Source: Heteroscytonema crispum UTEX LB 1556
GTDB taxonomy: Bacteria > Cyanobacteriota > Cyanobacteriia > Cyanobacteriales > Nostocaceae
Direction of reading: 5' to 3'
DNA length: 64,000 nucleotides
Assembly (NCBI GenBank): GCA_044006015.1
Contig: JBIPDF010000002.1
Location: 24,666 to 88,665 of the forward strand
In this document: piece after piece, positions 43,761 to 47,580 of the stretch
Layout: every line of letters begins with the position of its first letter
Position numbering within the stretch: the stretch's first letter is position 1
Notes under the pieces: generated by a model
The model's database searches: none
Told to the model about the DNA's origin: nothing
What the model saw: the letters and a program-made list of their open reading frames with translations, nothing else
Program-made: the position numbers and the translations under genes

Positions 43761-43929
43761 TCAGCGCCTGAGCGTCCGTAATCAAAAGGCTACAGAACTT
43801 TAAACAATGTAATAAGTTGGGCATTGGGAATTGAGAATTGTTGCGCCAGCGCCCTTCGCGACCGCGACAGTAGGCGACTGGCGTCATTGAGCATCGGGCA
43901 TCGGGCATCAAGAGATAATTCTTTCTTCC

Positions 43930-43980
43930 TTGTCCCCCACACCCGTCCCCCCCTCTCCCCCTCTCCCCCTCTCCCTTGCC
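43930..43980. repeat. STRR (CCCCCTCT-type C-rich heptamers)
   Basis: ccccacacccgtcccccctctccccctctccccctctccc read directly in the intergenic region. It is the same motif as the G-rich STRR inside glmS on the other strand. Confidence 0.7.
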
Positions 43981-43997
43981 CAGCATGTATACAATTT

Positions 43998-44822
43998 TTA
44001 AGTAGTAATATTAGCTACAATTTTTGGCTGGTTGAGAAATTGTGCGATCGCATTCCCGATTTTCTCAGTATTTTCCCGGTTGCAGCAGTAGTTTGTGTAA
44101 GAAATATCCATCGGTAGTGTTTGATTGGGAGCGATGAATAACTTTACTCGATAGGTTTTCCAGACTTTGTTTGATTTTTCTTCTAATTGGACATTTATAA
44201 TATCTTGCAGTGGATGCTGGATGTCGGTGCTGAAAAATAACCAGCTGCGTTTTTGAATTCTCAAACCATTACTGCGATCGAGTTCCCAGGTGATAAATTC
44301 GCTACAGTAAAGCAACCATAGAAGATTTAAAGCGATCGCACTGCCAAAAGCCCAGTTAATCCAGGATGTACCCTGTTGAATGGTCAAATAGGACTGTTTG
44401 GTGTTTTTCAGAAAATTATTGATTTGCAATGCGATCGCATTCAATTTTTTGGCTGTCATGTCTGGTTGTTCGGTGCGGGTAAACCCAAGAGGTATCCCAC
44501 CCTCTTTTGTCAGCAAGACAATTTGTTGATATTGAGTTTTACCATCACCTCTAGGGACTATAACAACCTTAGCTTGCCGTAATTGTTCCAGGGCAATAGT
44601 TTTGATTCGTGTTTTCACACGCTTTGATGAACTGGCTAGCTGACAAATCCCTTGGTTTGCCTGGGAGCGTTCGCAAGTCAGAATGTTATTAGGTGATAGG
44701 GGTGACAAAATTTTCAACAGGTAAAGCAGTAATAATAGGGTGCTGAACCCTCCTGCAAGGTAAATAAACTTTGGTAAAAACCAAAGTTTTAGTTTTGTGG
44801 ATGTTTGTTGCAGATTTGCCAT
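43998..44822 (-). CDS. Hypothetical protein with one N-terminal TM segment
   Basis: 274-aa ORF; TM FIYLAGGFSTLLLLLYLLKIL; no recognisable motifs. Confidence 0.5.
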   Translation of the reverse strand: MANLQQTSTKLKLWFLPKFIYLAGGFSTLLLLLYLLKILSPLSPNNILTCERSQANQGICQLASSSKRVKTRIKTIALEQLRQAKVVIVPRGDGKTQYQQIVLLTKEGGIPLGFTRTEQPDMTAKKLNAIALQINNFLKNTKQSYLTIQQGTSWINWAFGSAIALNLLWLLYCSEFITWELDRSNGLRIQKRSWLFFSTDIQHPLQDIINVQLEEKSNKVWKTYRVKLFIAPNQTLPMDISYTNYCCNRENTEKIGNAIAQFLNQPKIVANITT

Positions 44823-44967
44823 AAACCGAGTGCTAATACTGTCCCTGATATCAAGTTATTTGATGGCTATAGAAAAATATCTCTCCTTAAACAAGGTATA
44901 TCGAGAATCGACTCAATTACTGGATTTTAAGAAAAGCGATCGCATGAAGGTGCGCTGGTTTAGTTCG

Positions 44968-44995
44968 TAGGGACACAGCAATGCTGTGCCCCTAC
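44968..44995. terminator. Near-perfect hairpin gtagggacacagca/tgctgtgcccctac, followed by TTTTT on the + strand; it abuts the stop of the - strand gene 45000..45251
   Basis: Read directly; 13-14 bp stem. Confidence 0.4.
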
Positions 44996-44999
44996 TTTT

Positions 45000-45251
45000 T
45001 CACAGGTTTTCTAGCCCATCCATTTCAGTAACGGCAAATTCATCGTTGATTGCAGCGATTTCTGCTTGAATATCTCGATTGCTAGCCATTGCAGCTAGTT
45101 GTTCTTCCATATATTTGGCATCAGCGAATTTATCTGCTGTATGTTTTCTCTCTCGTAATTGTCGCGCAATACGTTCTAACAACCAAAGTTGTTCTTCTAC
45201 AGGTAAGGCAAGGATAGAGCGCTCGATTTCTAGTAAATGCGGTGATATCAT
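45000..45251 (-). CDS. Small protein resembling a putative addiction-module (antitoxin-like) component; no partner toxin seen
   Basis: LLEIERSILALPVEEQLWLLERIARQL matches the recalled N-terminal pattern of cyanobacterial 'putative addiction module component' proteins. 83 aa, acidic C-terminus. Confidence 0.35.
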   Translation of the reverse strand: MISPHLLEIERSILALPVEEQLWLLERIARQLRERKHTADKFADAKYMEEQLAAMASNRDIQAEIAAINDEFAVTEMDGLENL

Positions 45252-45299
45252 TTCGCTTGTTCTTGCAACCGAGGCGTATTTTTTACAGGTATTATATTA

Positions 45300-46650
45300 A
45301 CTTTATCTGATTGGATTCGCGATCGCAAAGGGGCGGAAATTAAACCATGAAGACGCGTACTGCTTTGCAGAACCCGAAGAGTAGGGCGTAAACTACCCAC
45401 ACTGACCTTGCGGTACAGTGTGGGCTTTCAGTAGCCCGCGTAGAGTCCGTACTGAGATTACAGCACAAACCGTTCGAGCCTCCAGGCAGGTTTACAGACT
45501 GCCCCAATAACGCAATCATCTTTGCTCCATTCAAATCAGCATCACAGGACAACCCACAATTGCCACATTTGAATTTTTTCTCAGAGCGCAAGCCGATATA
45601 CAAGCATTGATTACAAGTCTGACTCGTGTAGGCAGGGGAGACAGCTATCACCTCAACGCCGTCTCTCAATCCTTTGTATTCCAGAAACATTCGCAATTGA
45701 TAAAACGCCCACGAGTTGCTTCTACGACGTTCCGTTTTGTTGCGTGGTTTTTGGTTTGTCCTCTCACGGATACCAGTTAAATCTTCAATTACGACAAGTG
45801 CTTGTTCACTCTTGGCTTGCTGAATGATTGTTTTGCTTATGTTGTGGTTCACCCACGCTTGAAATCGTCTCTCACGCCCCGATAGCCGTGCCAAGACTTG
45901 CCGACATCTACGCCGACTAGTTCTTGTGCGTGTGGAAGCTTTTTTCTGGAGAGACGCTCTTGTTTTACTGTATCTATCCCTCGTCTTGGTTAACTGTTTA
46001 CCACTCCATGAATCACCGTTGCTGGTTGCGGCAATATCACGGCGTCCAAAATCAACACCGATTACTTTTTTGGTCGGCTGTGGATCTCGGACTTCGTCTT
46101 TGAGTTGAATATGGATGTAGTATTGTCCATCGCGATGCTTGCACAACTGGGCGCTTGTTGGTTTGCGCCCTGCAAGTTTACCGCGTTGATAATTGCCAGC
46201 ATTAATCTTGATATGTTCTCGACCAGATAATGTGGTCAAACTAACAGTCCAATCCTTCTCCCTAAAAGCAAAAATTCTTGCATCGTAATCAGCAGATGTA
46301 GGCTTAAATGCTTTTACGGGTTTGTCTTTCTTTTTGGCTGTCAGTCGATTAGCTCCGACCCTGGCACAAGCTCTGACTGCTAAGTTAGCTGGCAACCCAA
46401 ATTTGGCTCTCAAATCTTCGTAAACAATACCCTGAATTGTCAGTTTACTGGTTATTTCTGGCTTAATTACTTGATTAGTGTAATTACAGGCTTCCGCAAA
46501 AGCATGAAGAACCACCTCCAGTTTTTCCAACTGTAACGGCGTGGGGTTGAGTTTGCAAACTAGTGTCAGTACTTGTTCGATGAGTTCGACCTACTCACTA
46601 TCTGATTATAATTATCGGCTACAATTCTTCGTATTGAGTTCCCGGAGATT
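45300..46650 (-). mobile_element. IS605-family (tnpB-only) insertion sequence; ends not precisely defined
   Basis: Contains the TnpB ORF. Boundaries are estimated from the ORF plus ~100 bp on each side; no TnpA (Y1 HUH) ORF is present. Confidence 0.5.
45340..46530 (-). CDS. tnpB: TnpB (IS200/IS605-family OrfB, RuvC-like RNA-guided nuclease family) of an IS1341-type element lacking tnpA
   Basis: RuvC-I GVDFGRRDIAA, RuvC-II VVIEDLTG, Zn finger CNQCLYIG...KFKCGNCGLSCDADLNGAKMIALLG with RuvC-III D. The frame stays open 5' of the first ATG through VELIEQVLTLVCKLNPTPLQLEK (the usual TnpB start region) back to a stop with no in-frame ATG. The 3' ORF tail (after LGQSVNLPGG) probably reads into the omega-RNA region. 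Confidence 0.8.
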   Translation of the reverse strand: MEKLEVVLHAFAEACNYTNQVIKPEITSKLTIQGIVYEDLRAKFGLPANLAVRACARVGANRLTAKKKDKPVKAFKPTSADYDARIFAFREKDWTVSLTTLSGREHIKINAGNYQRGKLAGRKPTSAQLCKHRDGQYYIHIQLKDEVRDPQPTKKVIGVDFGRRDIAATSNGDSWSGKQLTKTRDRYSKTRASLQKKASTRTRTSRRRCRQVLARLSGRERRFQAWVNHNISKTIIQQAKSEQALVVIEDLTGIRERTNQKPRNKTERRRSNSWAFYQLRMFLEYKGLRDGVEVIAVSPAYTSQTCNQCLYIGLRSEKKFKCGNCGLSCDADLNGAKMIALLGQSVNLPGGSNGLCCNLSTDSTRATESPHCTARSVWVVYALLFGFCKAVRVFMV

Positions 46651-47021
46651 GTTAAAAACTTAACTATCCCCACTCCTTTAACAACCTACGGTTGTCATCA
46701 GTCGGGGGATGTTGCGTTTTTAACCCGCAATTCCTCTCAACACCGAATCAAAGATTACGGTGTGAGCCTCCTTGCGGGAACAGGTGAAGAAAAGAGCGAT
46801 CGCATACTTGCTACAAGCAGTATTATGTATTACCAGCGGTGACGTTGGAGCCAGGTTTTATGGTTTTTTCAGATAATATTAGGTATAAATATTTACTAAA
46901 ACGCCAGAGTATCAAATTTATGCATAATTTTAGCAATTCGTTAACTCTAACACAAACTCTGCATGTTAAGGCAAGCGAGTGCGTTACCATCCTAATAATG
47001 TAAATCACATTACAAAAGTTT

Positions 47022-47387
47022 ATGGAGCCAGACTCTCTACCAACCGAGGTGATTCTGACCCACCCGCGTCAGTCCCTCGGCAGCGTTAAACTTGATTGGA
47101 CACCGCAGCCCGGAAACTATCTCGATTTAGAAGGCGAAACCTACGCGGTTTTAGAGCGCCGTCACCGGTATCAATTGAAAGCAGGGCGCTACCGCTTGCA
47201 AAATATAGCCATTTACGTACAATCGGCAAAACGGCCATCAGAAAGAAGTTTGGTTGACGGACGTTGGGTAGTCGGCGATGCAACCTGTCGCTACAATGCT
47301 CATTCAGAAATCATTCGCTGTGCAGTCAACCCAGAAGGACTGTGCAATTCTTGTCGATTCTACGAAAAGTTAGGAGTCTTGAGTTAG
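47022..47387 (+). CDS. Hypothetical protein with C-terminal Cys cluster (CxxNPEGLCNSC)
   Basis: 121-aa ORF with good coding look. It resembles conserved cyanobacterial hypotheticals, but no family was assigned. Confidence 0.5.
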   Translation: MEPDSLPTEVILTHPRQSLGSVKLDWTPQPGNYLDLEGETYAVLERRHRYQLKAGRYRLQNIAIYVQSAKRPSERSLVDGRWVVGDATCRYNAHSEIIRCAVNPEGLCNSCRFYEKLGVLS

Positions 47388-47580
47388 GAGTTATGAGGCG
47401 CCCAGTTATGAGTTATGAGTGATGAGTTTTGAATGCGTGAATTAGGAGTGACCAAGGATGGCTAACTCTATAAACTTCAACTTTTAACTTTGCGCCTCCT
47501 CACTCCTAATTCCTCACTGGGCGCCTCAAGACTCCTAACTGGGCGGCTGGGCGGCTGGGCGGCTCCCAAACACTTCTCCT
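47380..47580. repeat. Palindromic STRR block (GTTAGGAGT/ACTCCTAAC heptamers plus GGGCGGCT x3) spanning the 3' ends of two convergent genes
   Basis: gttaggagttatgag... and ...cctcactcctaattcctcactgggcgcctcaagactcctaactgggcggctgggcggctgggcggct. The last repeats encode the fmt C-terminus RPAAQPPS. Confidence 0.8.

What the first reader, a model, noticed from the sequence alone, without database searches (positions are those of the whole stretch)
45300..46650. TnpB-only IS605-family element with apparently N-terminally eroded tnpB and a read-through 3' tail over the expected omega-RNA region
The TnpB catalytic residues and zinc finger are intact (GVDFG, VVIEDL, CNQC...CGNC...DADLNGA). The reading frame continues 5' of the first ATG through LVCKLNPTPLQLEK, the conserved TnpB start region, to a stop codon with no ATG, suggesting loss of the first few codons or a non-canonical start. 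The ORF also extends ~55 codons past the usual TnpB C-terminus into 45340-45500, where the omega-RNA scaffold should be encoded. TnpB elements are the ancestors of Cas12 and are reprogrammable nucleases; an orphan copy next to an antitoxin-like ORF is worth verifying.
Basis: partly seen in the sequence, partly recalled or inferred. Interest (0 to 1): 0.5.

Follow-up and report, generated by a model that had tools for sequence, protein, structure and literature searches.

The report
TnpB transposon copy, start codon mutated
This is an ordinary, complete copy of a very common cyanobacterial TnpB-only insertion sequence with its guide RNA, whose only clear defect is a single-base change that turned the ATG start codon into ATC.

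Summary
The finding is real but ordinary. Window 45388-46782 (minus strand) is a complete TnpB-only IS200/IS605 (IS1341-group) element. About 20 independent insertions in other cyanobacteria fix its ends to within a base or two.

- **Left end:** it follows a conserved TCAC(C) motif.
- **Right end:** it stops at ...GGGTAGTTTAC (45388).
- **Protein:** tnpB keeps the RuvC D-E-D triad and the zinc finger. dN/dS against relatives is about 0.04.
- **Start codon:** nothing has been lost at the N-terminus. The codon that is ATG (53 loci) or GTG (12) elsewhere is ATC here (46581-46579). The TTG that ORF finders pick (46530) is a substitution found only in this copy.
- **Long 3' tail:** it comes from a 1-nt length difference at 45438-45441, which puts the last codons in a second frame. 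That frame runs across the right end and 15 codons into flanking DNA. Three intact paralogues in the same genome (Heteroscytonema crispum UTEX LB 1556) do the same, so the tail is not decay.
- **Omega-RNA:** a covariance model built without the window hits 45388-45507 at 105.6 bits (E = 3e-28). Helices and a pseudoknot are supported by covariation. Rfam has no matching family.

Most likely this is a freshly translation-crippled copy. Low interest.

The parts
45388..46782 (-). Complete TnpB-only IS200/IS605 (IS1341-group) element, about 1.4 kb. The left boundary is uncertain by 1-2 nt.
   Evidence: Homology to about 20 independent insertions starts and stops at these positions, and the flanks are unrelated.
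46783..46787 (-). TCACC, the conserved motif immediately 5' of the left end. It is the presumed TnpA target site and therefore the TnpB TAM (TCAC or TCACC).
   Evidence: N-TCACC-T is conserved in front of 19 left ends whose upstream flanks are otherwise unrelated. The TAM function is inferred, not tested.
46724..46778 (-). Left-end subterminal hairpin: CCCGCAA...CTCACACCG-loop-CGGTGTTGAG...TTGCGGG.
   Evidence: Single-stranded DNA fold of -16 kcal/mol, z = -3.8. It is conserved in other copies.
46605..46610 (-). Conserved TATAAT (-10-like) box about 24 nt upstream of the start position.
   Evidence: Read directly from the sequence and conserved in relatives. The consensus promoter scan did not call it.
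46579..46581 (-). ATC at the position of the family's start codon. This is the only clear lesion.
   Evidence: The same codon is ATG in 53 loci, GTG in 12 and ATC in 1 other (L004). All 9 metagenome matches are ATG. All listed homologous proteins start MEQ/MKQ.
46528..46530 (-). TTG that the ORF listing uses as the start. It is a substitution unique to the window (Ser18 to Leu).
   Evidence: unique non-synonymous change S18L. No Shine-Dalgarno-like sequence lies upstream.
45340..46581 (-). tnpB reading frame counted from the ATC (413 codons plus stop). RuvC D177 is at 46051-46053, E266 at 45784-45786 and D349 at 45535-45537. The zinc-finger cysteines lie within 45556-45615.
45438..45441 (-). 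ACGC where most copies have 3 nt (TCA or AAC). The 1-nt length difference switches the C-terminal frame from SGLLKAH... to RATESPH...SVWVVY.
   Evidence: the inserted base is shown in the covariance-model alignment. The same frame is used by paralogues P0010, P0365 and P0371.
45388..45507 (-). Omega-RNA scaffold core. P1 is 45499-45503 paired with 45485-45489. P2 lies within 45440-45475. The P4/right-end hairpin is 45396-45424. The pseudoknot is 45490-45495 paired with 45388-45393.
   Evidence: Covariance model R1, built from 43 other loci, scores 105.6 bits, E = 3e-28, full length, and is the only significant hit in 64 kb. Covariation is shown. The RNA fold has z = -5.2. Synonymous-site conservation rises from about 45530.
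45368..45387 (-). Predicted guide, GCCCTACTCTTCGGGTTCTG. This is flanking DNA immediately 3' of the right end.
   Evidence: It is defined by the sharp right-end boundary. It is unique in the window. The guide role is inferred from the TnpB/omega-RNA paradigm.
45340..45387 (-). The last 15 codons plus the stop of the ORF. These are encoded by flanking DNA, not by the element.

Best explanation
The locus is a complete, non-autonomous TnpB-only IS200/IS605 (IS1341-group) insertion sequence in Heteroscytonema crispum UTEX LB 1556.

**How such an element works (inferred from the family).** A Y1 TnpA supplied in trans excises and inserts the single-stranded element, using the subterminal hairpins, 3' of a TCAC(C) motif. 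[quoted passage not shown] Its scaffold (45507-45388) ends at the right end, and its guide is the adjacent flank (45387 downward). TnpB loaded with this RNA would cut the empty donor site (TCACC followed by the guide match), so that recombination restores the element.

**What is particular to this copy (shown).** The start codon is ATC instead of ATG, so TnpB synthesis from this copy is most likely abolished or reduced to a trace. Everything else is intact: both ends, the hairpins, the catalytic residues and the omega-RNA. The change is therefore evolutionarily very recent. The long 3' tail is a harmless alternative frame that intact paralogues share.

**Possible residual role (inferred).** The omega-RNA of this copy could still be used by the 88%-identical TnpB made by paralogous copies.
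For: - **TnpB identity:**
- **Ends:** they are defined by about 20 independent insertions. Hairpins are present at both ends. TCACC is conserved 5' of the left end.
- **Omega-RNA covariation:** the structure has 91-94% of cells paired, against 78-81% in shuffles and 26-41% in slid controls. It has 21-24 pairs with compensatory changes.
- **Omega-RNA hit:** the model trained without the window hits 45388-45507 at E = 3e-28. There was one hit at the 3' end of tnpB in each of the 84 sources searched (83 loci plus the window).
- **Start codon:** the census gives ATG 53, GTG 12 and ATC 1, plus the window. All 9 metagenome matches are ATG.
- **Selection:** dN/dS is 0.03-0.07 at dS of 0.6-1.4. Only 4 non-synonymous and 7 synonymous changes are private to the window.
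- **Paralogues:** three in the same genome are identical to each other up to SVWVVY and then differ in flank-encoded tails.
- **Literature:** in ISDra2 the C-terminal region that overlaps the omega-RNA is dispensable, and the omega-RNA forms a pseudoknot (PMC10097598).
Against: - No expression data exist for the protein or the RNA.
- ATC is a permitted, though very weak, bacterial initiator. The same ATG-to-ATC change occurs independently in an otherwise intact copy in Fischerella muscicola PCC 7414 (L004). Low-level translation therefore cannot be excluded.
- No tnpA was found in the window or in any fetched locus. This was only a regular-expression test.
- The window's omega-RNA has one mispaired base pair and one inserted base at the foot of P2. 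Its score is at the low end for close relatives.
- TAM identity and guide use are inferred by analogy, not tested.
- No empty-site orthologue was found.
Confidence: 0.75

Rival explanations
1. The element is fully functional. AUC serves as a weak non-canonical initiation codon that keeps TnpB at a low, tolerated level.
For: Apart from the start codon the gene is intact, and its private changes show no clear sign of relaxed selection (7 synonymous against 4 non-synonymous). An independent copy (L004) carries the same ATC with an otherwise open frame. ATC is listed as a start codon in genetic code table 11 (own knowledge).
Against: ATC occurs in only 2 of about 76 copies surveyed. By my recollection of published E. 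coli measurements, near-cognate AUC initiates at roughly 1% of AUG or less. No strong Shine-Dalgarno sequence lies upstream. The numbers are too small to separate selection from chance.
Confidence: 0.17
2. The C at 46579 is an assembly or polishing error in the MAG. The real codon is ATG and the copy is a normal active element.
For: The source is a metagenome-assembled genome. The element is a multi-copy repeat, a class prone to consensus errors. A short-read contig of the same sample breaks inside the right end (L097).
Against: Cross-mapping from the paralogues would pull the consensus towards ATG, not away from it. Substitution errors are rarer than indels. The window copy is only 88% identical to the paralogues, so reads should map uniquely.
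Confidence: 0.06
3. Translation starts at the TTG at 46530 and yields a TnpB that is 17 residues shorter at the N-terminus (396 aa). The Ser18-to-Leu change would be a compensatory new start.
For: The TTG is the first canonical start in the frame. It is a substitution private to this copy.
Against: No Shine-Dalgarno-like sequence precedes it. The missing residues (EQVLTLVCKLNPTP) are nearly invariant in the family and match the N-terminal TIGR01765 domain from model position 1, so the truncated protein would probably misfold.
Confidence: 0.02

Closest known systems
ISDra2 TnpB with its omega-RNA (Deinococcus radiodurans; IS200/IS605 family)
   Same: RuvC D-E-D plus zinc-finger nuclease. The omega-RNA overlaps the 3' end of tnpB and ends at the right end, with the guide taken from the flank. 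The scaffold contains a pseudoknot. The C-terminal tail that overlaps the RNA is variable (PMC10097598). Subterminal hairpins are present, and insertion is next to a short conserved motif.
   Different: Sequence similarity is only distant (E = 1.4e-4 to PDB entries 8bf8/8h1j). There is no tnpA in the element. The presumed TAM is TCAC(C) rather than TTGAT. The start codon is mutated.
IS1341-group (tnpB-only) members of IS200/IS605 in Nostocales, annotated by NCBI as 'RNA-guided endonuclease InsQ/TnpB family protein'
   Same: It is the same family. More than 4,000 homologues were found, the best at 95% identity, and three paralogues sit in the same genome. The ends and the omega-RNA are the same.
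   Different: This copy has ATC in place of ATG or GTG. It is not present as a protein in the searched collection (best match 95% identity, no identical sequence).
IS608 (Helicobacter pylori) end architecture
   Same: It has imperfect subterminal hairpins and asymmetric ends. A tetranucleotide 5' of each hairpin foot can be matched to the cleavage site. At the right end this is AAAG with TTAC, as at the IS608 left end. At the left end it is GAGG with CACC. This matching is my own inference from remembered IS608 rules.
   Different: It has no tnpA. The pairing rule was not tested here.
Cas12f / type V CRISPR effectors
   Same: The RuvC/TNB fold is homologous.
   Different: The NCBIfam Cas12f2 score is 114 against a cutoff of 450. 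There is no repeat array nearby. Transposon ends are present.

Membership tests
IS200/IS605 family, TnpB-only (IS1341 group) | Encodes a TnpB with an intact RuvC D-E-D triad and a CxxC...CxxC zinc finger | tested here: met
   PF07282 and PF01385, plus NCBIfam guided_TnpB at 186 bits above the cutoff of 100. D177, E266, D349, C323, C326, C339 and C342 are invariant in the alignments and align with solved TnpB/Cas12f chains.
IS200/IS605 family, TnpB-only (IS1341 group) | Asymmetric ends with subterminal hairpins, no terminal inverted repeats and no target-site duplication | tested here: met
   The left-end hairpin is 46724-46778 (z = -3.8) and the right-end hairpin is 45396-45424 (z = -4.5). The flanks ...CTCTTTTCT and GCCCTACTC... 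are not duplicated.
IS200/IS605 family, TnpB-only (IS1341 group) | Insertion immediately 3' of a short conserved target motif, which is also the TAM | tested here: met
   TCACC precedes 19 left ends that have unrelated upstream flanks. Function as a TAM was not tested.
IS200/IS605 family, TnpB-only (IS1341 group) | A structured omega-RNA overlapping the 3' end of tnpB and ending at the right end | tested here: met
   The covariance model built from other loci hits 45388-45507 at E = 3e-28. Covariation is shown. Transcription was not testable.
IS200/IS605 family, TnpB-only (IS1341 group) | Absence of tnpA inside the element (non-autonomous) | tested here: met
   Only about 200 nt separate the left end from the tnpB start. 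No HUH/Y1-like motif was found in the six-frame translation of the window or of the fetched loci. This was a crude regular-expression test.
IS200/IS605 family, TnpB-only (IS1341 group) | RNA-guided, TAM-dependent DNA cleavage and mobilisation by a Y1 TnpA | not testable with these tools
   This needs biochemical or genetic assays. Recent mobility is suggested by three identical paralogues at different sites.
Functional (translated) tnpB gene | A canonical start codon at the conserved N-terminus | tested here: not met
   ATC sits at 46581-46579 where relatives have ATG or GTG.
Any Rfam 15 RNA family | A match to a curated covariance model | tested here: not met
   The only hit in 44500-47500 is a chance-level one, outside the element, at E = 0.43.
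Nuclease-dead domesticated TnpB (TldR-like regulators) | Loss of RuvC catalytic residues and loss of transposon ends | tested here: not met
   The catalytic triad and both ends are intact.
Type V CRISPR Cas12f | Score above the family cutoff, and an adjacent CRISPR array | tested here: not met
   The Cas12f2 score is 114 bits against a cutoff of 450. The self-comparison found no repeated DNA around the locus.

The most novel reading that the evidence does not exclude
The ATG-to-ATC change is not decay but a recurrent, selected state. It arose independently here and in Fischerella muscicola PCC 7414. Two versions are possible. In one, it attenuates a potentially genotoxic nuclease through non-AUG initiation. 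In the other, it turns the copy into a 'guide-only' element whose omega-RNA is loaded in trans by TnpB from paralogues, so the site is protected without the cost of another nuclease gene.
Probability: 0.08. Interest if true: 0.35.

Novelty: already known. Interest (0 to 1): 0.12.

Why it matters
It matters little beyond annotation. The locus should be annotated as a complete IS200/IS605 TnpB-only element with a start-codon mutation, not as a truncated or extended ORF.

Three by-products are useful:
- A covariance model and a pseudoknotted secondary structure for the omega-RNA of a large cyanobacterial TnpB clade that Rfam does not cover.
- The likely TAM, TCAC(C), and the exact right-end boundary for that clade.
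- A clear example that the C-terminal frame of TnpB can toggle and run into flanking DNA without harm. This warns against reading such tails as erosion.

Tried and rejected
- **Rfam scan of 44500-47500:** no omega-RNA family matched.
- **Second copy or tnpA in the window:** none was found.
- **Orthologous empty site:** the nearest relatives carrying the DUF6464 neighbour (90% identity) have psaC and DUF6464 adjacent. They lack the whole 3.15-kb block, so they give no precise empty site.
- **Closest metagenomic TnpBs (95% identity):** they sit at other insertion sites.
- **DNA of the three same-genome paralogues:** it could not be fetched.
- **Idea that the L068-like lineage is an N-terminally re-started functional variant:** this lineage has a +1 frameshift at codon 8-9. 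The idea was rejected because those copies carry further frameshifts and stops.
- **RNAalifold on the plain MAFFT alignment:** it recovered the long-range helix and P2 but mis-registered the terminal hairpin. Re-alignment to the covariance model fixed this.
- **Sigma-70 consensus scan:** it gave nothing above the shuffle expectation.

Full report
**What is in the sequence**

On the minus strand there is an ORF at 45340-46530 whose first canonical start is a TTG. It matches Pfam Cas12f1-like_TNB (PF07282, 1e-20) and OrfB_IS605 (PF01385). It also matches NCBIfam guided_TnpB at 186 bits against a cutoff of 100. The reading frame stays open upstream of the TTG as far as a TAG at 46593-46591. The TIGR01765 N-terminal domain model aligns from its first position to residues that lie upstream of the TTG. 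They align with the catalytic Asp/Glu/Asp and zinc-finger positions of solved TnpB and Cas12f chains.

**The start codon**

A search of 5.8 billion proteins returned more than 4,000 homologues, nearly all from filamentous cyanobacteria. The best are 93-95% identical and 389-405 aa long. All 24 that I aligned begin MEQVLTLVCKLNPTP or MKQ.... The window reads L-I-E-Q-V-L-T-L, so the codon at 46581-46579 is ATC where the family has its initiator.

Among the fetched genomic loci where this codon could be located, it is ATG in 53, GTG in 12 and ATC in one, L004 from Fischerella muscicola PCC 7414. A scan of metagenome contigs with a pattern that accepted either ATG or ATC found nine matches, all ATG. 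So nothing has been deleted. A single G-to-C transversion removed the start codon.

The TTG at 46530 that ORF finders use is a Ser-to-Leu substitution private to this copy. It has no Shine-Dalgarno-like sequence in front of it. L004 groups with a different sub-lineage (L003) than the window, so the two ATC alleles look independent.

**The element's ends**

BLAST of 44901-47000 against 80 related loci gives alignments that repeatedly begin at 46787-46791 and end at 45387-45388. Three metagenomic copies fetched later behave the same way.

At the right end, every copy stops at ...GGGTAGTTTAC (or ...AGCTTAC), and the downstream sequences are unrelated. The right end is therefore at 45388.

At the left end, conservation begins at N-TCACC-T in 19 loci with unrelated upstream flanks. 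I read TCAC(C) at 46787-46783 as the target motif and TAM, and about 46782 as the first base of the element. The boundary is uncertain by one or two bases because no empty site could be found.

Both ends carry subterminal hairpins on the tnpB sense strand. The left one is at 46724-46778 (z = -3.8) and the right one at 45396-45424 (z = -4.5). Their stems are similar (CACAC[CT]G). There are no terminal inverted repeats and no target duplication. This is the IS200/IS605 architecture.

Only about 200 nt separate the left end from tnpB. A crude HUH/Y1 motif search found no tnpA in the window or in any fetched locus. The element is therefore of the non-autonomous, tnpB-only (IS1341) type.

**The 3' tail**

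Family protein homology continues to ...CNLSTDS (residue 380, 45442). After that most homologues read SGLLKAH... and stop within the right end, often at the TAG inside GGGTAGTTTAC. The window reads TRATESPHCTARSVWVVY and then continues.

The cause is a length difference just 5' of the invariant GGGCTACTGAAAGCC. The window has ACGC (45441-45438) where most copies have three bases, TCA or AAC. The covariance-model alignment shows it as one inserted base. In this second frame the last 18 nt of the right end encode SVWVVY. The ORF then runs 15 codons into flanking DNA, 45387-45343, and stops at 45342-45340.

This is not decay. The 83-aa neighbour is 100% identical to MFH7024823.1 of Heteroscytonema crispum UTEX LB 1556, which identifies the source genome. 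That genome encodes three further TnpBs of this family: P0010, P0365 and P0371. They are identical to each other through ...RATESPHCIRYSESVWVVY and then diverge into three different flank-encoded tails. So intact copies that transposed recently use the same frame and also read across the right end.

In ISDra2 the C-terminal region that overlaps the omega-RNA is disordered and dispensable for cleavage (PMC10097598).

**The omega-RNA**

Rfam 15 has no family that matches here. I aligned the last 107-125 nt of 43 other elements, leaving the window out (alignment A2).

RNAalifold recovered two features:
- A long-range helix between GUAARC and the terminal GYUUAC.
- An internal hairpin, P2.

I tested a manual structure with P1, P2, the terminal hairpin P4 and the pseudoknot (the P1 loop paired with the last six bases of the right end). 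The results were as follows:
- 91.2% of cells are paired, against 80.6% in shuffles (0 of 500 shuffles reached the observed value).
- Only 28-41% are paired when the partners are slid by 1-3 columns.
- 21 of 32 pairs show compensatory changes.

A covariance model of the nested part (R1) has one significant hit in the whole 64-kb window: 45388-45507, minus strand, 105.6 bits, E = 3e-28, full length. Searching 83 loci plus the window gave exactly one hit per source, always at the 3' end of tnpB.

On the model-guided alignment, 94.1% of cells pair, against 78% in shuffles. The pseudoknot's variable position shows GC 39, AU 27, GU 6 and CG 4. That alignment is fitted to the model, so it leans towards the structure.

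The window RNA folds with z = -5.2. It has one mispair and the inserted base at the foot of P2, and it scores at the low end of its close relatives.

Independent support comes from synonymous sites. Identity of synonymous codons is 0.42-0.50 over most of the gene and rises to 0.64-0.74 over the last 45 codons or so, from about 45530. The predicted guide is the flank GCCCTACTCTTCGGGTTCTG (45387-45368), which is unique in the window.

**State of the gene**

Against 13 relatives, dN/dS is 0.03-0.07 at dS of 0.6-1.4. The lineage leading to this copy has therefore been under strong purifying selection for essentially all of its history. Private changes number 7 synonymous and 4 non-synonymous (S18L, P165R, A264V, H328Y). 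Two of the four non-synonymous changes (P165R and H328Y) also occur in other intact homologues.

Decay is common elsewhere in the family. A lineage found at three or more different sites (L068, L091, L096) shares a +1 frameshift at codons 8-9 and has further frameshifts. The window copy shows none of this. The start-codon change is therefore either very recent or tolerated.

**Mechanism**

Shown here:
- The identity of the protein.
- The ends, the hairpins and the conserved flanking motif.
- A conserved structured RNA element at the right end.
- The mutated start codon.
- Intact paralogues in the same genome.

Inferred from established knowledge of IS200/IS605 and TnpB (Karvelis 2021, PMC8612924; Meers 2023, PMC10055086; Nakagawa 2023, PMC10097598):
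- A Y1 TnpA acting in trans moves the element as single-stranded DNA, 3' of TCAC(C).
- The omega-RNA, guided by the right flank, directs TnpB to cut the empty donor joint, so that recombination restores the element.

For this copy, ATC should reduce translation by roughly two orders of magnitude or more (own knowledge of near-cognate initiation in E. coli). Any nuclease activity at this site would then probably depend on the 88%-identical TnpB from the paralogues, and this cross-loading is untested.

**Comparison and verdict**

This is an ordinary member of a very large, already annotated family. NCBI names its paralogues 'RNA-guided endonuclease InsQ/TnpB family protein'. The interpretation needs three corrections:
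- The 'erosion' is a point mutation of the start codon.
- The read-through tail is a normal frame variant.
- The copy is not an orphan.

Novelty is nil at the level of kind. The recurrent ATC is a small curiosity. Interest is 0.12.

Noticed in passing
window 45000-45251 (-): The 83-aa ORF has about 300 homologues of the same length in cyanobacteria. All are named 'hypothetical' and none has a Pfam hit. In Fischerella thermalis a 72%-identical homologue overlaps by 4 nt a downstream 115-aa PemK/MazF toxin gene, so the family looks like a MazE-type antitoxin. The window has no PemK-like sequence anywhere (tblastn), so here the antitoxin is an orphan.
   Followed up: partly
window 43840-46993: In the nearest relatives that carry the DUF6464 gene, psaC and DUF6464 are divergent neighbours about 225 bp apart. 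The window has an extra 3.15 kb between them. It holds a 274-aa ORF with no significant Pfam match (43998-44822), the 83-aa ORF and the TnpB element.
   Followed up: partly
window about 45840-45960 (-), tnpB codons about 205-245: There is a second, weaker region of suppressed synonymous variation. Identity is 0.83-0.89 among close relatives and 0.55-0.65 among 64 diverse copies, against a baseline of 0.42-0.60. It lies in the Arg-rich segment ASLQKKASTRTR...RLSGRERRFQAW. It could be an internal promoter or RNA element, or a codon-usage effect. It remains unexplained.
   Followed up: no
L068 2766-4171; L091; L096 (also L090, L094 and L095, which are the same locus as L068): One sub-lineage of the element carries a shared +1 frameshift at tnpB codons 8-9 (GTTTGC changed to GGAAAGC) plus further frameshifts. 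It still occurs at three or more different insertion sites with an intact omega-RNA and intact ends. Copies with a dead tnpB therefore keep spreading.
   Followed up: partly
window 45438-45441 and the equivalent site in L001-L080: The 3-4 nt just 5' of the invariant GGGCTACTGAAAGCC vary in length between copies: TCA or AAC against ACGC, and an inferred GAAC in P0010. This toggles the TnpB C-terminal frame between one that stops inside the right end and one that reads into the flank.
   Followed up: partly
L004 (Fischerella muscicola PCC 7414), tnpB start codon about 250 nt upstream of locus position 966: This is a second copy with ATC in place of ATG. Its 390-codon frame is otherwise open, and it has a 270-bp insertion in its left end. 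It groups with L003, not with the window, so the change appears independent.
   Followed up: partly
L004, L001, L002, L006 left ends: Several copies carry insertions of 50-270 bp inside the left end, between the hairpin and the tnpB promoter region. Some are GC-rich and hairpin-like, which suggests small nested repeats or MITEs.
   Followed up: no
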